A DNA stretch of 64,000 nucleotides from a virus. Taxonomy: Duplodnaviria; Caudoviricetes. The position numbers were made by a program, and so were the translations under genes. Of the stretch, positions 9,757 to 36,062 are shown piece by piece (positions within the stretch are counted from its first letter, which is position 1; each line of letters opens with the position of its first letter). Location: IMG/VR virus record IMGVR_UViG_3300032269_000703, positions 1 through 64,000 of that record. The stretch is one strand, 5' to 3'. The notes beneath the pieces are model-generated. The model searched no databases, had not been told where the DNA came from, and worked only from the letters and a program-made list of their open reading frames with translations.

Positions 9757-10096
9757 ATTACCTGTCACAATTAAAGTGGGTACTCAAGACTGGACTATTG
9801 TAGAGCACACGTCTAAAGAAGACGGTATGTTGTACGAAGATAACTATGGGTACACCCTAGAGCGCCGTAATATGATTGTCATAGATAAAGATGCGTCAGA
9901 TAGTCGTAAAAAGCAAGTCCTAATACACGAGATCTTGCACGCCATCAGGTTTACTTTTTTTACAGGTAATAAAATGGCACCAAAGCTAAGTTTTGAAGAC
10001 ACAGAACACTATTTCATTGGTATGTACGAAGAGACATTACTGATGGTTTTACAAGACAATCCACCACTCGTAGAATACTTATTGGATAAAAAATGA
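9749..10096 (+). CDS. HExxH zinc metallopeptidase-like protein
   Basis: YGYT...IVID...VLIHEILHAI...EHY. Confidence 0.65.
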   Translation: MSKLPVTIKVGTQDWTIVEHTSKEDGMLYEDNYGYTLERRNMIVIDKDASDSRKKQVLIHEILHAIRFTFFTGNKMAPKLSFEDTEHYFIGMYEETLLMVLQDNPPLVEYLLDKK

Positions 10097-11592
10097 TCAT
10101 ATTTGGTGGTGTAGAAATACCCTCAAATCGTACCCTTCTAGAACGTTCTGGTGTTACAAACGTAATGCTGAATTATTGGGGGCTACGCAAGCGTGGGCTA
10201 CCTAAAAACAAGACCTATTTAATAGGCGAGCATTTCCTACCTGAAACAAAAGTATGGGTAGATTCTGGAGCTGTCCAAGCAGATAAAGCCAATCTTTCAC
10301 GTCAAGAACTAGAGCAATACGCAGCTGATTATGAAGAGTTTATTGCTAACAACTATGATCGTATTGAAGGATTTACAGAATTTGACAGCCAAGTTCTGGG
10401 ATTGCCTACAATCATTAAGAATAGAGCCGTTTACCAAGGCGATCCTAAACTATGGGTAGTATGGCACGAAACCTATAAAACCTTTGTTTTAGAAGAATGG
10501 GCAAAAGAGCATTCTAACATAGCCATTCCTGGTACCGAAATCGAGGCTGTAACGTCGCTAGCCGCCATTACAAGAAGATTACAGCAAATGTATCAGGTTT
10601 CATTCCACGCCCTTGCTACGGTCAAACCAGACAATTTACGGCAGATACCATTTGTCACAGCTAGCACACTATCCTGGTTAACTCCAATGAGAAGAGGCGA
10701 GACAATCGTTTGGGATGGTAGTAAACTAGTTAGATATCCTAAAAATATGAAGAGCCAAGCCAGAATACGATACAAAAACGTCGTAGAAAAGGCAGGTTTA
10801 GATTTTAAAAAGTTTGTAGAAGATGACACATTAGAAGCCACCAAAGTCGCAATTTGGTCGTATTTACAGTTAGAGAAAACAATGGACAAAGAAAAACCCG
10901 ATCTAAAAGTTATTAAAGGTGGACAACAAGACCCGCTACTATCTGATAACAGTGATGATACTCTATACACCGGTTTGATGCAAATGGGTGGGTATGGTTC
11001 TAATAACAGTGATGAAATAGATCTCAAAAAAGAGCGTACTGAAGTGGTACAAAGAGACCCTTCTGAGGTAGTTTCTATGCCTGTTTTTGGGTATGAGTAC
11101 AAGACTGTAATAGAGACTGAAAACGGCATAGATGTACTAAAAGATGTGCCAGTTGTTAAGTCAAATAGTAGCAGTTTAAGACAGTGCAACACCTGTTTTG
11201 TTGCTGCAAATTGCCCTGCATTTAAGCCCGATAACACCTGTGCATTTAACCTGCCAGTAGAGGTAAAAACCAAGGATCAACTGAAATCATTACTTACCGC
11301 AGTTATTGAAATGCAGGGTCAGAGAGTAGCATTTATGCGGTTTGCAGAGGAATTAAACGGTGGTTATGCAGATCCAAACGTGTCACAAGAAGTAGACCGT
11401 TTAATGAAGTTGGTTAAGTCTATGAAGGAACTTGACGAGAATAAAGAGTTTGTCAGGATTACTGCTGAACGCTCCTCTAGTGGGGGTGTATTGTCAGCTA
11501 TTTTTGGTGACCGCGCACAGGCACTTAGAGAGATGTCAAACCCTCTAAATCCAGATCAAACTAACAAGATTATACGGGATTCAATAGAATAA
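10093..11592 (+). CDS. TGT/DpdA-like TIM-barrel domain fused to a C-terminal Cys-cluster/helical domain
   Basis: VWVDSGA motif, VVWH, FHAL and TLSWL elements as in phage TGT-like proteins; C-terminal CNTCFVAANCPAFKPDNTC. Confidence 0.5.
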   Translation: MIIFGGVEIPSNRTLLERSGVTNVMLNYWGLRKRGLPKNKTYLIGEHFLPETKVWVDSGAVQADKANLSRQELEQYAADYEEFIANNYDRIEGFTEFDSQVLGLPTIIKNRAVYQGDPKLWVVWHETYKTFVLEEWAKEHSNIAIPGTEIEAVTSLAAITRRLQQMYQVSFHALATVKPDNLRQIPFVTASTLSWLTPMRRGETIVWDGSKLVRYPKNMKSQARIRYKNVVEKAGLDFKKFVEDDTLEATKVAIWSYLQLEKTMDKEKPDLKVIKGGQQDPLLSDNSDDTLYTGLMQMGGYGSNNSDEIDLKKERTEVVQRDPSEVVSMPVFGYEYKTVIETENGIDVLKDVPVVKSNSSSLRQCNTCFVAANCPAFKPDNTCAFNLPVEVKTKDQLKSLLTAVIEMQGQRVAFMRFAEELNGGYADPNVSQEVDRLMKLVKSMKELDENKEFVRITAERSSSGGVLSAIFGDRAQALREMSNPLNPDQTNKIIRDSIE

Positions 11593-11765: not shown

Positions 11766-13781
11766 ATGACTAATTTTTCTTTTAAATTATCCGAAGAGTT
11801 TGTAGCAAGCTATAACAGCAAGAAAGCACCTTTTGGCTACGCAGATGTTGCAGGAAACTCAGTAGGTGAAATTACCTTCCTACGTACCTATTCACGCAAG
11901 AAGCCAGATGGTACCAAGGAAACCTGGGTTGAAGTATGTGAACGTGTAATTAACGGTATGTACTCACTACAGAAAGATCACGCTAAGCAAAACCGCCTAC
12001 CTTGGTCAGATGCCAAGGCTGCTGCTAGTGCCAAGGAAGCGTTTGATCGTCTATTCAACCTAAAGTGGACACCACCAGGTCGCGGACTATGGGTTATGGG
12101 AACTTCACTAGTAAATGAACAGCGTAACTCTGCTGCGCTACAGAACTGTGCCTTTGTATCTACTAACGAAATGACTAAGGCTAACCCTGCCAAGCCGTTT
12201 GCATTCCTTATGGAAGCGTCAATGCTGGGTGTGGGTGTTGGTTTTGATGACAAGGGCGCTGATAAAGGATTTGAAATCTATGAGCCTAAATCAGATCTAG
12301 AATATATGATTCCAGATACTCGTGAAGGCTGGGCAGACAGCGCAGTTGCACTTATCAACTCTTATTTAAAGCCAGACCAGCCAAATTGGGTATTTGAATA
12401 CAAAGAAATTCGTCCATATGGAGCTGCGATTGCTACTTTTGGAGGAACAGCCTCTGGTCCAGAGCCACTAATTAAACTACACGATCAGATTAGGGTATTA
12501 TTTGCAGGTCGTGCTGGGCAGATGTTGACTCGTAAAGATATTGCTGATATCGGTAATATGATCGGTGTTTGTGTAGTATCAGGAAACGTTCGTCGTTCTG
12601 CAGAGCTACTAATTGGTCAGATTGACGATCAGGAGTTCCTAAACCTAAAGAACCCTGAACTAAACCCTGAGCGTATGGCTAACTGGGGTTGGATGTCTAA
12701 CAACTCAGTAGAAGTATCTGTGGGTACAGACTTCACTCCAATCGTAGATGGTATTGCACGTAATGGTGAGCCAGGTGTTATCTGGATGGACACATCACGT
12801 AAGTATGGTCGTTTGGCAGACAAGCCTAACAACAAGGACTGGCGTATTTCTGGGTACAACCCTTGTGCAGAACAAAGCCTAGAAAGTTTTGAGATGTGTA
12901 CTTTGGTTGAGACTTACCTAAACCGCCACGATAGCCTAGAAGATTATAAGCGCACTCTTAAGTTTGCTTATCTCTATGCTAAGACCGTGACCCTACTTCC
13001 TACTCACTGGGAAGAAACTAACGCTATTATGCAACGTAATCGCCGTATTGGTACTTCAATGTCTGGTGTAGCTAACTTTGCAGATAACAAGGGTCTACCT
13101 GTACTACGTCAATGGATGGATGAAGGCTACCAGGTTGTAACTGAGTATGACAAGACTTACTCTGAGTGGCTGGGTATTCGTGAATCTATCAAAATGACTA
13201 CAATCAAGCCATCAGGTACTGTGTCTCTTCTTGCAGGCGAGTCTGCTGGTGTGCACTGGGACGTTGCTGGTCGCTACCAAATGCGCTTGATTACATTTGC
13301 AGATAACGATCCAATGTTGCCACTATTCAAGATGGCTAACTATCGTGTAGAAGAAAGCGTATACACTAAGGGGTCATCAGTAGTGTACTTCCCTATCAAA
13401 TCTAACTCTGTTCGTTCTGCTAAAGACGTGTCTATTTATGAAAAGATCGCTCTAGCTGCAACAGCACAGCGTTACTGGTCAGACAACTCTGTATCAGTCA
13501 CAGTTTCTTTTGATGCTGAAAAAGAATCAGAAGATGTCGGTCGTGTATTGCATATGTACGATGGACAATTAAAGACCGTATCTTTCTTGCCTAGTGGCAA
13601 TAAGGTCTACGATCAAATGCCTTACCAGGAAATCACAGAAGACGAGTATAACGGGTACGCTATGCAACTCTTCCCGATTGACTTTAAGGGTGTCTATGCT
13701 GGTATGGCATCAGATGCTATTGGTGAGGCTTACTGCACCACAGACGCTTGCGAGATCAAACTCGTCAAGGACAACCAATAA
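11766..13781 (+). CDS. nrdJ: Class II (adenosylcobalamin-dependent, RTPR-type) ribonucleotide reductase
   Basis: RTYSR, PPGRGLW, LQNCAF, GNVRRSAE, NPCAEQ, TTIKPSGTVS and a C-terminal YCTTDAC redox pair. Confidence 0.95.
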   Translation: MTNFSFKLSEEFVASYNSKKAPFGYADVAGNSVGEITFLRTYSRKKPDGTKETWVEVCERVINGMYSLQKDHAKQNRLPWSDAKAAASAKEAFDRLFNLKWTPPGRGLWVMGTSLVNEQRNSAALQNCAFVSTNEMTKANPAKPFAFLMEASMLGVGVGFDDKGADKGFEIYEPKSDLEYMIPDTREGWADSAVALINSYLKPDQPNWVFEYKEIRPYGAAIATFGGTASGPEPLIKLHDQIRVLFAGRAGQMLTRKDIADIGNMIGVCVVSGNVRRSAELLIGQIDDQEFLNLKNPELNPERMANWGWMSNNSVEVSVGTDFTPIVDGIARNGEPGVIWMDTSRKYGRLADKPNNKDWRISGYNPCAEQSLESFEMCTLVETYLNRHDSLEDYKRTLKFAYLYAKTVTLLPTHWEETNAIMQRNRRIGTSMSGVANFADNKGLPVLRQWMDEGYQVVTEYDKTYSEWLGIRESIKMTTIKPSGTVSLLAGESAGVHWDVAGRYQMRLITFADNDPMLPLFKMANYRVEESVYTKGSSVVYFPIKSNSVRSAKDVSIYEKIALAATAQRYWSDNSVSVTVSFDAEKESEDVGRVLHMYDGQLKTVSFLPSGNKVYDQMPYQEITEDEYNGYAMQLFPIDFKGVYAGMASDAIGEAYCTTDACEIKLVKDNQ

Positions 13782-33406: not shown

Positions 33407-33762
33407 TGGATGAACAAAATCTAAACGATCAGCAGTTTGGTCCTTGGAAAATGACTCCTACCATGAAGGCTGTTCATGAGTATATGAAAACTAGACATGT
33501 TGGTGTAGAAAACAGAGGCGGTATGTGGGACATTGCAGCAGCTACTGTTACAAACCATAAAAAACAGTATTTAACTAATGCTAAACATGAAGCCCACTTT
33601 GAGGCATTAAATCGTCTAATTGATAATGGAATTGTAAAAAAGAACTCTGGAGACTACCATAATGGAGATGATATCGATACTGCGTGGATTCCTGTAGAAG
33701 GTGAAAAAACTGTAAAAGAACTGTACATGGAAGAACTTGAACATAAATTTGGCAGTCAGTAA
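33406..33762 (+). CDS. Possible winged-helix protein
   Basis: MWDIAAA...EALNRLIDNGIVKK; leader NLNDQQF. Confidence 0.45.
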   Translation: MDEQNLNDQQFGPWKMTPTMKAVHEYMKTRHVGVENRGGMWDIAAATVTNHKKQYLTNAKHEAHFEALNRLIDNGIVKKNSGDYHNGDDIDTAWIPVEGEKTVKELYMEELEHKFGSQ

Positions 33763-34172
33763 TGGGTAGAAATACTGCAGCATTTCAAGGTGGTCAAGGA
33801 CTATCTATTGTTCATGATAAAGGACAAAAAGTATCTTTACACAAAGTTGGAGAAGGTGAGGTATCTAGTATAGATTACCATTTACCAGAACCAAATAGGG
33901 TATACATTTCTATGATGAATACTCCATGGGAGTATGAAGGTAATGGGTATTCTTCTTACCTAGTAAACCATCTGTATAACTATTACCCAAACCACACAAT
34001 AGATTTTGGCGATATTGTCCACCCAGCGGCAGAACACATTATGGAAAAGATGATGTCACAACATGGCAGAACAGTATACAGCACTTCGTCTAAAGACTGG
34101 ACTTGCAAAGAGTGCGGAGAAGAAAATTTTTCTAGAGATATGTTACGTGAGCATGAAGAAGAGAATCACTAA
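33762..34172 (+). CDS. GNAT-fold acetyltransferase-like protein with C2H2 finger
   Basis: ISMMNTPWEYEGNGYSSYLV (motif A-like); CKEC...H...H; leader MGRNTAAF. Confidence 0.6.
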   Translation: MGRNTAAFQGGQGLSIVHDKGQKVSLHKVGEGEVSSIDYHLPEPNRVYISMMNTPWEYEGNGYSSYLVNHLYNYYPNHTIDFGDIVHPAAEHIMEKMMSQHGRTVYSTSSKDWTCKECGEENFSRDMLREHEEENH

Positions 34173-34531
34173 TGGGTAGAAATAATGCAGACTTCCATGG
34201 TTACACTCTAGAGTTTGAGCACGCTGATACTTCTCCTGTAGAAGACTGTGATCACCACAGAGTAGATGCTTTTGATAAAGATGATGAGCATGTAGGCAGT
34301 TTAATATGGTTCACGCATGACGCGGGCGCGCGTACCCCAGGCGCAATAGACGTAGATGTAGACCCTGAACACCAGCGTAAAGGTATAGCTACTGCTATGT
34401 ACAAGTTTGCTTTACAAAAAGCTGCTGAACATAACATTATTAAGCCAGATCTACTTAGGTCTTCGTATGGACCTGAAGGGTATAGATGGGCTAGATCTTT
34501 AGGATTACCTAAGAAGTTTGGTGAAAGATAG
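34172..34531 (+). CDS. GNAT acetyltransferase
   Basis: VDVDPEHQRKGIATAMY acetyl-CoA binding motif; leader MGRNNADF. Confidence 0.8.
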   Translation: MGRNNADFHGYTLEFEHADTSPVEDCDHHRVDAFDKDDEHVGSLIWFTHDAGARTPGAIDVDVDPEHQRKGIATAMYKFALQKAAEHNIIKPDLLRSSYGPEGYRWARSLGLPKKFGER

Positions 34532-34645: not shown

Positions 34646-35167
34646 ATGCACATTAACGTACCAGATCCATGGGATAAACACAAAAACCCATATATTAACC
34701 CACATGATCCGTGGGATAAGAAAAAAGAGTGGGAAAAACCTGCTCCACCAAAGATTATTACAATTAATGATCTATTTCCTCGTTTAGACCGCCTTTCTAT
34801 TGGTTGGTCTCCACTTCTTGATCAACTCAAGGAGATTACTAACAACAAGCCAAGTTACCCTCCATATGACATTGTTCAGATGGATGAAGAGACAAACCTA
34901 CTCAACGTAGCTGTTGCTGGGTTTACTAAGAAGGAAGTTACTGTTACTGTAAAAGATTCAGCAATTACCATCGAAGGTAAGCAGAAAGAAAAGCAACGTG
35001 GCGAAGTTGTTTACCAGGGCATTGCTACACGGGACTTTAAGTTGTCGCTAGCAATTGCTGAATACTGGGAAGTTACTAATGCTCTAATGGAAAACGGTAT
35101 GTTGACTATTCAATTCAACAAGATCCTTCCTGAAGAGCTGAAGCCAAAGGTAATTGACATTAACTAG
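34646..35167 (+). CDS. Small heat-shock protein (Hsp20/IbpA family)
   Basis: SYPPYDIV...VAVAGF...YQGIATRDF...MENGMLTI...PEELKPKVIDI. Confidence 0.93.
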   Translation: MHINVPDPWDKHKNPYINPHDPWDKKKEWEKPAPPKIITINDLFPRLDRLSIGWSPLLDQLKEITNNKPSYPPYDIVQMDEETNLLNVAVAGFTKKEVTVTVKDSAITIEGKQKEKQRGEVVYQGIATRDFKLSLAIAEYWEVTNALMENGMLTIQFNKILPEELKPKVIDIN

Positions 35168-35182
35168 TTTTTAATGTAGACT
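35154..35182 (+). promoter_or_regulatory. Sigma70/SigA promoter driving the ncRNA cluster
   Basis: TTGACA (35154) - 17 bp - TAGACT (35177). Confidence 0.7.
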
Positions 35183-35189
35183 AGGTATA

Positions 35190-35219
35190 CCACCTGAGCA
35201 CGTGGACGTAAAACTGCTC
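35190..35219 (+). ncRNA. Compact H-type pseudoknot at the predicted transcript 5' end
   Basis: CCAC/GTGG stem; loop GAGCA pairs with downstream TGCTC across an AAAA linker. Confidence 0.45.
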
Positions 35220-35222
35220 TTA

Positions 35223-35305
35223 GGGCTAGAAATGGTGTCGATTGCAGAACAAAGCCGCATGTCGGAGTCTGTAAGACCGCAGTTCAATTCTGCGCTGGTC
35301 CACGC
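35223..35305 (+). ncRNA. tmRNA tRNA-like domain only (mini-tmRNA, no mRNA-like domain)
   Basis: Acceptor GGGCTAG/CTGGTCC with G3.U wobble and discriminator A; unpaired D-loop AAATGGTGTCGA; stem TTGCAGA/TCTGTAA; GAC linker; T-arm CGCAG-TTCAATT-CTGCG. Confidence 0.7.
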
Positions 35306-35361
35306 TTGTAGACAAAGGAGCGTTTTAGCGGTCTACCCGTCCTAGGCAACGGAATCTCCAA

Positions 35362-35435
35362 GGACTGGCGTAGCCATGGGCTACGAGTCGATTCGGTAGG
35401 TAGTAGTCGGTAGTGCAAATCTACACAGTCCACGC
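35362..35435 (+). ncRNA. Atypical tRNA-like RNA
   Basis: GGACTG/CAGTCC acceptor; CGTAGCC/GGCTACG arm; CGATT/AGTCG arm with 11-nt loop; GTAG-TGCAAAT-CTAC T-arm; 3' ACGC. Confidence 0.5.
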
Positions 35436-35448
35436 ATGGAAGGAAAAT

Positions 35449-35622
35449 ATGCCAACGTATCAATACACGTGTAAAGAGTGTGACTCTACAATTAGTCACC
35501 TCATACCTATTAATGAACCATTAATAACTCCTAAATGCCTGTCCTGTCAACAGGAAATGGAAAGGATATTTGCCGTTCCTAGTATTACATTTCGTGGTGG
35601 TGGTTGGGGCAGTAGCCGTTGA
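35449..35622 (+). CDS. FmdB-family zinc-ribbon protein
   Basis: MPTYQYTCKEC...CLSC..EMERIF..PSITFRGGGW. Confidence 0.85.
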   Translation: MPTYQYTCKECDSTISHLIPINEPLITPKCLSCQQEMERIFAVPSITFRGGGWGSSR

Positions 35623-36062
35623 AGACATGCACTTTATGCGGTATTGAGAAATCTTACGATCAATACACTAAAAAAAGCCGTAATAGGGATGGGTACATGG
35701 CTATGTGCCGTGAATGCTCTCTACCTAGGCGTCGTAAACAATATGAAGAAAATCCGGACTATCAAAGGAACGCAGTGAAGGTTCGTAAAGAAAATAATCG
35801 TGATCGCATAACACAGTACAAGATAGATAACCCTTGTGCTGATTGTGGTAAATTTTATCCTTCTTATGTGATGGATCTAGATCACGTACGTGGAGATAAG
35901 TTTAAAGGAGTATCTCAGCTAGTTTCACATAGCTGGGACGTAATAGAAACAGAAATTGCTAAGTGTGACTTAGTATGCGCTAATTGCCATCGTGAACGTA
36001 CTTTTAAACGTTTAGGCACAACACAACTCGACTACTACCATGAGGACTACCAACTTGATTAA
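35619..36062 (+). CDS. HNH endonuclease
   Basis: CTLC...CREC; CADCG...DLDHV...EIAKCDLVCANCHRERT. Confidence 0.85.
   Translation: MKTCTLCGIEKSYDQYTKKSRNRDGYMAMCRECSLPRRRKQYEENPDYQRNAVKVRKENNRDRITQYKIDNPCADCGKFYPSYVMDLDHVRGDKFKGVSQLVSHSWDVIETEIAKCDLVCANCHRERTFKRLGTTQLDYYHEDYQLD

What the first reader, a model, noticed from the sequence alone, without database searches (positions are those of the whole stretch)
35223..35305. Mini-tmRNA: a complete tRNA-like domain with the mRNA-like domain deleted
Seen: 83 nt with tmRNA tRNA-like-domain hallmarks. These are a 7-bp acceptor stem with G3.U wobble and discriminator A (alanine identity), a stemless D-loop ending in TCGA, a P2a-like helix TTGCAGA/TCTGTAA, a GAC linker and a canonical T-arm. 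The helix is capped by only 19 nt (ACAAAGCCGCATGTCGGAG) instead of pseudoknots and a tag ORF. The 3' end is ACGC, so CCA must be added after trimming. Established: the tRNA-like domain binds SmpB and is alanylated. Inference: it could be an SmpB decoy that blocks trans-translation, or a tag-free ribosome-rescue RNA that protects phage proteins when host defences cleave tRNA or mRNA.
Basis: partly seen in the sequence, partly recalled or inferred. Interest (0 to 1): 0.85.

Follow-up and report, generated by a model that had tools for sequence, protein, structure and literature searches.

The report
Phage tag-less mini-tmRNA gene
This 93-kb phage carries a real 80-base RNA gene that is only the alanine-accepting, tRNA-like end of the bacterial ribosome-rescue RNA (tmRNA); one such RNA was already known from mycobacteriophage DS6A, so this is a further member of that kind, which turns out to be common and unannotated in phages.

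Summary
The gene proper is 35223-35302, and CGC follows the discriminator A.

**Detection.** ARAGORN and Rfam do not call it.

**Family.**
- Two sequence patterns retrieved 118 phage loci of 77-81 nt with the same architecture.
- 116 of 118 have G3·U70 and 118 of 118 have A73.
- All four helices show compensatory changes: covariation score 0.597, against 0.174 when shuffled.
- Rfam's tmRNA model passes its own threshold on 10 of 29 members tested. It aligns both ends and skips about 300 interior positions.
- A model built only from those 10 members scores this element at 83 bits and the published DS6A 'TLD only' tmRNA at 67 bits.

**Context.** Members often sit inside phage tRNA arrays. Close relatives have tRNA-Trp just downstream.

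**This genome.** It has one copy and no true tRNA. I found no SmpB, CCA-adding enzyme or integrase.

**Identity and function.** It is a CDS-less tmRNA, with near certainty. Function is inferred. It is probably made and charged like a tRNA and competes with host tmRNA for SmpB, as an engineered TLD-only RNA does in E. coli (Mao 2009, as cited). The rival reading is tag-free ribosome rescue.

**Novelty.** New member of a known kind. This scan has found the same family before on other DNA.

The parts
35154..35182 (+). Candidate sigma-70-type promoter (TTGACA-17-TAGACT), about 40 nt upstream of the RNA gene
   Evidence: Consensus scan, 10 of 12 matches. The region-wide count is not above shuffles (4 found, 3.2 expected). 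The -10-like TAGACT/TAAACT is kept in relatives. Weak evidence, a candidate only.
35223..35302 (+). Mini-tmRNA gene (TLD-only), 80 nt from G1 to discriminator A73
   Evidence: Scores 90.7 bits with family model R1. Scores 83.2 bits, E=6e-20, with model R2, which was built without it. It is the only copy in the whole genome. It is identical outside the cap in four related contigs.
35223..35229 (+). Acceptor stem, 5' strand GGGCTAG (G3 of the G3·U70 pair at 35225)
   Evidence: Pairs 7/7 with 35295-35301. In alignment A2, G3·U70 is GU in 48 of 50 sequences, and pairs 4-7 covary.
35230..35241 (+). Stemless D-loop AAATGGTGTCGA. The final GA is placed opposite GA of the GAC linker (tandem G·A), as in tmRNA
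   Evidence: Sequence. The Rfam tmRNA alignment of family member L077 places the equivalent bases on GGaUUCGAC of the model. Members found with a pattern that left the D-loop free have GGUUUCGAC-type loops.
35242..35248 (+). Helix P2a (H2), 5' strand TTGCAGA
   Evidence: Pairs with 35268-35274. All 7 pairs show compensatory changes across the family.
35249..35267 (+). 19-nt cap that replaces the pseudoknots and tag ORF: ACAAAG, CCG stem, CATGT loop, CGG stem, AG
   Evidence: CCG/CGG changes to CCT/AGG in L003 and L005, a compensatory change. The AAAGCC...GGAR motif is conserved even in members with different D-loops, including Streptomyces phages BRock and LuckySocke.
35268..35274 (+). Helix P2a, 3' strand TCTGTAA
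35275..35277 (+). GAC linker between P2a and the T-arm
   Evidence: Aligns with GGAC of the Rfam tmRNA consensus in family members. It is near-invariant, but both search patterns partly fixed it.
35278..35294 (+). T-arm CGCAG-TTCAATT-CTGCG
   Evidence: 100% paired across the family, and 4 of 5 pairs show compensatory changes.
35295..35302 (+). Acceptor stem 3' strand CTGGTCC plus discriminator A73 (35302)
   Evidence: A73 is present in 118 of 118 family loci.
35303..35305 (+). 3' trailer CGC. No CCA is encoded, so trimming and CCA addition by host enzymes would be needed
   Evidence: Sequence. 24 of 118 family loci encode CCA at this place, and most others begin with C. No CCA-adding enzyme gene is found in the phage.

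Best explanation
**Identity (about 0.95).** 35223-35302 is a functional gene for a CDS-less 'TLD-only' tmRNA. It keeps the acceptor stem, stemless D-loop, T-arm and the first helix (P2a) of tmRNA. The roughly 300 nt of pseudoknots and tag reading frame are replaced by a conserved 19-nt capped hairpin.

**Mechanism (inferred, about 0.55).**
1. It is transcribed with, or like, the phage's tRNA genes.
2. Host tRNA-processing enzymes cut it out, and the host CCA-adding enzyme gives it CCA.
3. Host AlaRS charges it with alanine through G3·U70 and A73.
4. The host's SmpB binds it at the D/T-loop elbow.

Because it has no resume codon, tag or stop codon, it cannot complete trans-translation. It therefore competes with host tmRNA for SmpB, and probably also for AlaRS, EF-Tu and stalled ribosomes. 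The expected result during infection is less SsrA tagging, less proteolysis of truncated proteins and less SmpB-tmRNA-dependent RNase R decay.

**What is shown and what is inferred.** Sequence, structure, family membership and selection on the alanine identity pair are shown. Expression, processing, charging, SmpB binding and the effect on the host are inferred.
For: **Structure**
- All reader-described features are present, and the minimum-free-energy fold equals the proposed fold.
- In 50 distinct family sequences, 94.7% of cells are paired against 71.1% when shuffled. The covariation score is 0.597 against 0.174 (0 of 500 shuffles reach it) and 0.05-0.12 when partners are slid. 17 of 22 pairs have double changes.
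- RNAalifold independently recovers the acceptor stem, T stem and P2a.

**tmRNA identity**
- RF00023 matches family members over model positions 1-374 at 47-64 bits (gathering score 47), E 1e-15 to 1e-22, with the interior skipped. This holds for 10 of 29 members tested.
- Model R2, built only from those 10, scores the window element at 83.2 bits (E 6e-20) and DS6A at 67.1 bits.

**Precedent**
- The DS6A element at JN698994 28478-28557 has the same 80-nt layout.
- The tmRNA Website authors list it as 'TLD only'. They report that a similar molecule strongly inhibits tmRNA in E. coli, perhaps by titrating SmpB (PMC4131195; PMC11915505).

**tRNA-like biogenesis**
- 10 of 63 members lie within 10 nt of a same-strand tRNA, and 21 of 63 within 300 nt.
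- Relatives L002 and L003 have tRNA-Trp 61-62 nt downstream.
- 24 of 118 loci encode CCA right after A73.

**Selection for alanine identity**
- G3·U70 is present in 116 of 118 loci and is never G-C. A73 is present in 118 of 118. Pairs 4-7 vary freely.
- In the second pattern the acceptor stem and D-loop were left unconstrained.
- G3·U70 plus A73 are the AlaRS determinants, and SmpB binds the TLD elbow (PMC3968760).

**Purifying selection in this lineage**
- Across five contigs the 80 nt differ only in the cap, with a compensatory change, while the leader upstream differs heavily.
- The element is retained although this genome has lost every true tRNA.

**Dependence on the host**
- The phage encodes no SmpB and no CCA-adding enzyme.
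Against:
- The element itself fails Rfam's tmRNA gathering score, and ARAGORN misses it. DS6A fails the Rfam score too.
- CCA is not encoded.
- According to PMC4131195, the engineered TLD-only RNA inhibited tmRNA whether or not it could be charged. Pure SmpB titration therefore does not explain why G3·U70 and A73 are so strictly kept. That conservation suggests charging, and probably ribosome entry, matters, which also fits the tag-free-rescue rival.
- The conserved cap motif AAAGCC...GGAR has no role in the decoy model.
- The host is unknown, so mimicry of the host's own tmRNA could not be checked.
- I could not read Mao et al. 2009 directly; its result is taken from two papers that cite it.
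Confidence: 0.55

Rival explanations
1. Tag-free ribosome rescue. Ala-charged mini-tmRNA, with host SmpB and EF-Tu, enters stalled non-stop ribosomes and accepts the nascent chain, adding one alanine. The ribosome is then freed without a degradation tag, by drop-off and peptidyl-tRNA hydrolase or by a host release-type factor. Phage proteins made from damaged mRNAs would escape proteolysis and ribosomes would be recycled.
For: - The AlaRS identity set is strictly conserved: G3·U70 in 116 of 118 loci and A73 in 118 of 118. This argues that charging matters, which a pure SmpB sponge would not need (PMC4131195).
- CDS-less tmRNAs are kept together with SmpB in jakobid and other mitochondria, and are thought to help with incomplete mRNAs (PMC11915505).
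- The short P2a plus cap is kept at a nearly constant length of 77-81 nt.
Against: - Without a resume codon and stop codon there is no known way to terminate.
- The phage encodes no ArfB/RF-1-type hydrolase domain.
- The only experiment reported for a similar RNA showed inhibition of tmRNA, not rescue.
- Nothing was tested here.
Confidence: 0.25
2. A tRNA-like RNA with a role outside trans-translation. Examples are a processing 'punctuation' element for the early transcript, a decoy for host enzymes or defence nucleases that recognise the tRNA acceptor/T-arm half, or an alanine donor for a non-ribosomal transferase.
For: - It sits in tRNA arrays and between protein genes on the coding strand.
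- The conserved cap motif is unexplained by the tmRNA models.
- Two members have A3-U70 instead of G·U (L046 and L065).
Against: - A punctuation element or generic decoy would not need the tmRNA-specific stemless D-loop, the tandem G·A, the GAC linker and P2a, all of which align to RF00023.
- It would not need near-universal G3·U70 either.
- I noted no recurrent neighbouring gene in the loci examined, but no systematic neighbourhood comparison was made. In this window the flanks are Hsp20 and a zinc-ribbon protein.
Confidence: 0.12
3. Micro-tag tmRNA. The cap and the 3' strand of P2a would be a six-codon reading frame, GCC GCA UGU CGG AGU CUG UAA (35254-35274, A-A-C-R-S-L-stop), used as an ultra-short tag template.
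For: - 34 of 50 family sequences have an in-frame stop before the T-arm in this frame, against 10 and 14 in the other two frames. An A-rich run precedes the GCC.
- tmRNAs with 2-residue tags exist (PMC11915505).
Against: - 17 of 50 start with ACC, not an alanine codon.
- DS6A has no stop in this frame, and by my reading of their sequences neither do BRock and LuckySocke.
- The UAA is simply the U-A-A that pairs with U-U-G at the base of P2a. The codons change in ways that preserve the helices rather than a peptide.
- The frame is buried in two helices only 19 nt from the TLD. That is too short to reach the decoding centre as the normal tmRNA loop does (inference).
Confidence: 0.03
4. Non-functional remnant or chance. 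The possibilities are a decayed tmRNA or tRNA-Ala pseudogene, a phage attP copy of the host ssrA 3' end, or the acceptor piece of a two-piece tmRNA.
For: - ARAGORN and Rfam do not call it.
- The best Rfam partial hits are to permuted-tmRNA models.
- A degenerate tRNA-like element lies next to it.
Against: - Compensatory changes in all helices and 118 loci with intact stems.
- The 5' half is present, which an attP copy would lack.
- No integrase or resolvase in a complete genome with direct terminal repeats.
- No coding piece anywhere in the genome.
- In relatives the downstream element is tRNA-Trp or nothing.
Confidence: 0.02

Closest known systems
'TLD only' (CDS-less) tmRNA of mycobacteriophage DS6A (tmRNA Website tmID 11587 / Phage__Mycobacterium.9; Mao et al. 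2009 as cited in PMC4131195 and PMC11915505)
   Same: - 80 nt from G1 to A73.
- 7-bp acceptor stem with G3·U70 and A73.
- D-loop (C)AAUGGUG(G)UCGA.
- 6-7-bp P2a helix, small capped CCG/CGG hairpin, NAC linker, T-arm UUCRAUU, and no encoded CCA.
- Both score strongly with model R2, built from other members: 67 and 83 bits.
- Both fail Rfam's tmRNA gathering score.
   Different: - DS6A is a 60.6-kb temperate actinophage with about 70% GC in the element, a tyrosine integrase and an RtcB ligase.
- This phage is 93 kb, about 41% GC, and has no integrase or RtcB.
- The linker is CAC in DS6A and GAC here. Helix sequences are unrelated.
- The DS6A element is not next to a tRNA.
Canonical bacterial tmRNA (SsrA; Rfam RF00023)
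   Same: The tRNA-like domain: acceptor stem with G3·U70 and A73, stemless D-loop, tandem G·A plus GAC at the base of helix 2, and a T-arm. Family members align to both ends of RF00023. These defining TLD features are as described in PMC3968760.
   Different: The whole interior is absent and replaced by 19 nt: about 300 model positions comprising pseudoknots, resume codon, tag ORF and stop. CCA is not encoded in this member. RF00023 does not report this member.
CDS-less tmRNAs of organelles: jakobid and other mitochondrial tmRNA (RF02544; Jacob et al. 2004) and about 65-bp plastid tmRNAs of Mallomonadaceae (PMC11915505)
   Same: Natural tmRNAs reduced to little more than the TLD, with no tag reading frame.
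   Different: The organellar genes are usually permuted (two-piece), are vertically inherited and co-occur with the organism's own SmpB. Here the gene is one piece, phage-borne and would act on a host SmpB. No RF02544 match was reported.
Unannotated homologues in cultured Streptomyces phages BRock (KX925554.1, 97143-97220, minus strand) and LuckySocke (OR725497.1, 17977-18054, plus strand)
   Same: - These are the closest cultured relatives by capsid (about 60% amino-acid identity) and terminase (about 50%).
- They carry a 78-nt element in the tRNA array with G3·U70, A73 and the same cap AAAGCCGCACGCGGAR. Scores are 54-60 bits with R1.
   Different: Their D-loops are of the canonical tmRNA type (GGUUUCGAC, GGUUUUGAC) rather than UGGUGUCGA. 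The base of P2a is C-G with a GGAC linker. They lie among many true tRNAs, whereas this genome has none. Neither is annotated in GenBank.

Membership tests
tmRNA tRNA-like domain (TLD) | 5' and 3' ends form a 7-bp acceptor stem | tested here: met
   GGGCTAG/CTGGTCC pairs 7/7. The helix is 98.3% paired across 50 sequences, and 4 pairs show compensatory changes.
tmRNA tRNA-like domain (TLD) | G3·U70 wobble pair and discriminator A73 (AlaRS identity, PMC3968760) | tested here: met
   Present in the window element. G·U in 116 of 118 family loci and A73 in 118 of 118.
tmRNA tRNA-like domain (TLD) | tRNA-like T stem-loop | tested here: met
   CGCAG-TTCAATT-CTGCG. The helix is 100% paired and 4 of 5 pairs covary.
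tmRNA tRNA-like domain (TLD) | Reduced D-loop without a stem, followed by helix 2 (P2a) in place of an anticodon arm | tested here: met
   The 12-nt loop has no stem. All 7 P2a pairs covary. The layout aligns to RF00023 in family members.
tmRNA (Rfam RF00023) | Score at or above the curated gathering threshold (47 bits) | tested here: not met
   No RF00023 match is reported for the window element, even at E up to 10 on 100-400 nt. 10 of 29 other family members do pass at 47-64 bits, and a model built from those 10 scores this element at 83.2 bits. DS6A also fails.
tmRNA (complete, functional in trans-translation) | mRNA-like domain with resume codon, tag ORF, stop codon and pseudoknots | tested here: not met
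   Only 19 nt lie between the two strands of P2a. The apparent 6-codon frame is not conserved as coding. This absence is what defines the 'TLD-only' form.
tmRNA / tRNA | 3'-terminal CCA | tested here: not met
   The genome reads A-CGC, so CCA would have to be added after transcription, which cannot be tested here. 24 of 118 family loci do encode CCA.
tmRNA TLD | Alanylation by AlaRS and binding of SmpB | not testable with these tools
   This needs biochemistry. The phage has no SmpB of its own.
TLD-only (CDS-less) phage tmRNA, DS6A type | Same architecture and detectable homology to the DS6A element | tested here: met
   I located the DS6A element at JN698994 28478-28557. Both are full-length matches to R1 and R2.
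Canonical tRNA (RF00005 / ARAGORN) | D-stem and anticodon arm with a 7-nt loop; detection by tRNA models | tested here: not met
   ARAGORN finds 0 genes, also with introns allowed. No RF00005 match at E up to 10. The distal loop is 5 nt on a 3-bp stem.
Two-piece (permuted) tmRNA (RF01849, RF01850, RF01851, RF04321) | A separate coding piece with 5' acceptor strand, tag ORF and pseudoknots | tested here: not met
   - Only partial matches of 7.8-11.5 bits over the T-arm and 3' end.
- The 5' acceptor strand lies directly upstream in one piece.
- Nothing else in the genome matches.
- Relatives have tRNA-Trp or the next protein gene downstream.

The most novel reading that the evidence does not exclude
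The mini-tmRNA is not merely an SmpB sponge but an active, alanine-charged ribosome ligand. Two observations point that way. The AlaRS identity set is strictly kept (G3·U70 in 116 of 118 loci, A73 in 118 of 118). A cap motif, AAAGCC-loop-GGAR, is conserved and is not found in the tmRNA models. On this reading it enters stalled ribosomes and either rescues them without a degradation tag or locks them, and the cap is a new functional module. That would make phage mini-tmRNAs a distinct class of translation-control RNA rather than a broken tmRNA.
Probability: 0.25. Interest if true: 0.7.

Novelty: new member of a known kind. Interest (0 to 1): 0.4.

Why it matters
Trans-translation is the main bacterial system for rescuing stalled ribosomes and destroying their products. 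A phage RNA that blocks or redirects it is a compact host-takeover tool.

The literature I could reach names a single phage example, DS6A. Here the same architecture appears in at least 118 uncultivated phage loci, and also unannotated in the cultured Streptomyces phages BRock and LuckySocke. ARAGORN called none of the members it was run on correctly, and Rfam's tmRNA model missed about two thirds of those tested.

For this window the practical results are:
- a correct annotation of an otherwise blank intergenic region;
- the observation that the phage kept this RNA while losing all true tRNAs;
- a tractable, non-pathogenic laboratory system in related Streptomyces phages, in which to test whether these RNAs inhibit tagging or provide tag-free rescue.

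Tried and rejected
- **ARAGORN at lowered thresholds.** It gave a 'permuted tmRNA' call at 35209-35738 among 59 (ps80) to over 400 (ps60) obvious false positives. Not usable.
- **BLASTN of the region against the phage collection.** No match.
- **Exact 28-mer of the T-arm and acceptor in viral contigs.** It found only the four near-identical relatives, so degenerate patterns were needed.
- **The first pattern in 596 Gb of prokaryote genomes.** 9 hits, about the number I estimate by chance. Model R1 confirms only three at 83-86 bits (L089, L090, L093), all on contigs of 4-7 kb in metagenome bins, probably phage fragments. The family is essentially viral.
- **More distant Hsp20-bearing relatives L006-L019.** No element near the Hsp20 gene. 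These loci carry ordinary tRNAs or none.
- **Two-piece tmRNA reading,** suggested by the beta_tmRNA alignment. Rejected; see the membership test.
- **Micro-tag ORF.** Rejected as coding.
- **attP reading.** No integrase or resolvase.
- **Phage-encoded partners.** SmpB, CCA-adding enzyme, RF-1/ArfB domain and RtcB are all absent.
- **Mao et al. 2009.** Not held in the library.
- **Host identification.** Not achieved.

Full report
**Observation.**
- The acceptor stem GGGCTAG/CTGGTCC has 7 pairs, including G3·U70, and is followed by discriminator A35302 and then CGC.
- The 12-nt D-loop AAATGGTGTCGA has no stem.
- A 7-bp helix TTGCAGA/TCTGTAA is closed by 19 nt that contain a CCG/CGG mini-stem.
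- A GAC linker and a T-arm CGCAG-TTCAATT-CTGCG follow.

RNAfold returns this three-way junction as the minimum-free-energy and centroid structure. The energy is not unusual for the composition (z = -0.94), so thermodynamics alone proves nothing. ARAGORN finds no tRNA or tmRNA in the window or in the full genome. Rfam at gathering thresholds finds nothing. Permissive Rfam scans give only partial matches of 7.8-11.5 bits to permuted-tmRNA models over the T-arm and 3' acceptor strand.

**Setting.**
- The window is the first 64 kb of a complete 93,035-bp phage record with direct terminal repeats.
- The element lies on the coding strand between an Hsp20 gene (34646-35167) and a zinc-ribbon gene (35449-35622).
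- The phage has a terminase, portal, major head protein, ribonucleotide reductase and a DpdA-like transglycosylase.
- Its closest cultured relatives, by capsid (about 60%) and terminase (about 50%), are the Streptomyces phages BRock and LuckySocke.

**Close relatives.** Hsp20-based retrieval gave 18 related viral loci. Four carry the element. It is identical except in the cap, where CCG/CGG becomes CCT/AGG, a compensatory change. The leader just upstream differs heavily. In two of these contigs a bona fide tRNA-Trp(CCA) follows 61-62 nt downstream. In a third, the element is followed directly by the zinc-ribbon gene. The element therefore stands on its own in a tRNA-gene neighbourhood and is not half of a two-piece gene.

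**Literature.**
- The tmRNA Website authors list mycobacteriophage DS6A as having a 'TLD only' ssrA. [quoted passage not shown] 2009) (PMC4131195).
- Their 2025 update repeats this and adds about 65-bp CDS-less plastid tmRNAs and the tag-less mitochondrial forms (PMC11915505).
- I located the DS6A element, which is unannotated in GenBank, at JN698994 28478-28557. It is GGGGCCG-CAATGGTGGTCGA-CCGCCG...CGGCGG-CAC-GCGAG-TTCGATT-CTCGC-CGGCTCC-A. This is 80 nt, the same length and layout as the window element.

**A large family.** A pattern taken from what the two share (D-loop, AC linker and T-loop, with all helices left free) has 0 matches in 100 shuffles of the window. It found 64 stretches in the viral collection.
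- 63 of 65 hits have 7/7 (one 6/7) acceptor pairs and 5/5 T-stem pairs. They are 77-81 nt long. 61 have G3·U70, 2 have A3-U70, and all 63 have A73.
- On a MAFFT alignment of the 50 distinct sequences, 94.7% of cells pair, against 71.1% when shuffled. The covariation score is 0.597 against 0.174 (0 of 500 shuffles reach it) and at most 0.12 for slid partners. 17 of 22 pairs have double changes, spread over all four helices.
- RNAalifold independently recovers the acceptor stem, T stem and P2a.

A second pattern fixed only the cap motif, the linker and the T-loop. It gave 74 stretches, 55 of them new. All 55 had intact stems, G3·U70 and A73, none of which the pattern constrained. Their D-loops were of the canonical tmRNA type, GGUUUCGAC and variants. 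In 596 Gb of prokaryote genomes the first pattern gave 9 hits. Only three are real, and all three are on small contigs in metagenome bins.

**Is it tmRNA?** Rfam's RF00023 matches family members from model position 1 to 374, with about 300 interior positions skipped. It aligns the acceptor stem, D-loop, the tandem G·A with the GAC linker, P2a and the T-arm. Scores are 47-64 bits (threshold 47) for 10 of 29 members tested. None was called tRNA at threshold.

The window element and DS6A do not pass. As a transitive test, I built a covariance model only from the 10 members that pass. That model scores the window element at 83.2 bits (E 6e-20) and DS6A at 67.1 bits, and finds no second copy in the 93-kb genome. 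The element is therefore a CDS-less tmRNA of the DS6A type. It fails one formal criterion, Rfam's score for this particular sequence, and by definition lacks the mRNA-like domain.

**How it probably works.** The steps below are inferred.

*Biogenesis like a tRNA.*
- 10 of 63 members lie within 10 nt of a same-strand tRNA, and 21 of 63 within 300 nt.
- 24 of 118 encode CCA directly after A73.
- This member reads CGC and the phage has no CCA-adding enzyme, so host enzymes must finish it.

*Charging.* G3·U70 and A73 are the AlaRS determinants (PMC3968760). They are kept in 116 of 118 and 118 of 118 loci, while the neighbouring pairs vary freely. That is selection, not inertia.

*SmpB.* SmpB binds the D/T-loop elbow of the TLD. 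The phage has no SmpB, so the partner would be the host's.

*Outcome.* With no resume codon, tag or stop, the RNA cannot complete trans-translation. The published result for a similar RNA is inhibition of tmRNA.

My best reading (0.55) is competitive interference with host trans-translation. The strict conservation of the alanine identity set is not needed for a pure SmpB sponge. It is the main argument for the rival reading, in which the charged RNA enters stalled ribosomes (tag-free rescue, 0.25). The conserved cap motif AAAGCC-loop-GGAR is shared even with BRock and LuckySocke and remains unexplained by either model.

**Rejected readings.**
- *Ordinary tRNA.* There is no anticodon arm and no model match.
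- *Two-piece tmRNA.* There is no coding piece.
- *attP remnant.* The 5' half is present, and the complete genome has no integrase or resolvase.
- *Micro-tag.* In this element GCC GCA UGU CGG AGU CUG UAA is in frame, and 34 of 50 members have such a stop. However, 17 start with ACC. DS6A lacks the stop, and by my reading so do BRock and LuckySocke. The UAA is simply the base of P2a, and the variation preserves helices rather than a peptide.

**Novelty.** The kind is known (DS6A; Mao 2009; Hudson et al. 2014). This is a new member, in a different phage lineage. In the papers I could search, the width of the family is not described. This scan, however, has met the family many times on other DNA, with the same conclusion that I had reached independently beforehand. 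Specific to this window:
- the phage retains the mini-tmRNA while having no true tRNA at all;
- its cultured relatives BRock and LuckySocke carry unannotated homologues, which offer a safe experimental system.

**Limits.**
- No expression data could be obtained.
- The host is unknown.
- I could not read Mao et al. 2009 itself.
- Both search patterns fix parts of the loops, so loop conservation is only partly independent.

Noticed in passing
window 35362-35432 (+): A second tRNA-sized element (GGACTGG...CAGTCCA, with a TAGC/GCTA D-like stem and T-loop TGCAAAT) sits exactly where relatives L002, L003, L073 and L078 have tRNA-Trp(CCA). Its 3' part still aligns with the tRNA-Trp T-arm. ARAGORN, Rfam and models R1 and R2 do not call it. 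It is probably a decayed or replaced tRNA gene. It is shared with L004, with 2 substitutions.
   Followed up: partly
window 35298-35305 and 35428-35435: The same 8-mer GTCCACGC ends both the mini-tmRNA and the degenerate tRNA-like element. Relative L005 lacks the 130 nt between the two copies and goes straight from GGTCCAC to the zinc-ribbon gene leader. This looks like a deletion, or an insertion, between short direct repeats.
   Followed up: partly
window 35306-35361 (+): The spacer after the mini-tmRNA holds a hairpin GTAGAC...GTCTAC (about 35309-35338). It is conserved in L002-L004, with a G·U-compatible change in L003. Another first-stage note calls the whole 35154-35435 stretch a four-module ncRNA operon. 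I did not test the pseudoknot claims.
   Followed up: no
OR725497.1 17977-18054 (+) = L105 1178-1255; KX925554.1 97143-97220 (-) = L106 944-1021: The cultured Streptomyces phages LuckySocke and BRock carry a 78-nt mini-tmRNA in an unannotated gap of their tRNA arrays. Scores with R1 are 60 and 54 bits. Both have G3·U70, A73 and the cap AAAGCCGCACGCGGAR.
   Followed up: yes
L046 424-502 (-), L065 1039-1117 (+): Two family members have A3-U70 (GGACTTG/CGAGTCC) instead of G3·U70 and an AU-rich cap. They are the only two exceptions among the 118 loci found here, and presumably cannot be charged with alanine.
   Followed up: no
L072 10275-10670 (-): ARAGORN calls a 396-nt 'tmRNA*' with tag VEKLDIGLGFGIMYA that overlaps the 79-nt mini-tmRNA (10578-10656) in this viral contig. 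Its ends do not coincide with the mini-tmRNA. It is probably an artefact seeded by the TLD-like sequence, but I did not examine it.
   Followed up: no
whole genome G000 (window plus L095, L096): The phage has no detectable true tRNA gene, while its relatives carry tRNA-Trp, Asn, Thr and others beside the mini-tmRNA. The mini-tmRNA has outlasted the tRNAs in this lineage.
   Followed up: partly
window 10093-11592 (+) and 11766-13781 (+): A DpdA-like queuine tRNA-ribosyltransferase homologue (PHROG 887, E 1e-63) lies next to a ribonucleotide reductase. This suggests 7-deazaguanine modification of the phage DNA.
   Followed up: no
window 34172-34531 (+) and 33762-34172 (+): A small GNAT acetyltransferase (119 aa, Acetyltransf_1 E 5e-8) lies two genes upstream of the mini-tmRNA. 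The adjacent 136-aa ORF has no Pfam match. Some GNAT toxins acetylate aminoacyl-tRNA, but no link to the RNA was tested.
   Followed up: no
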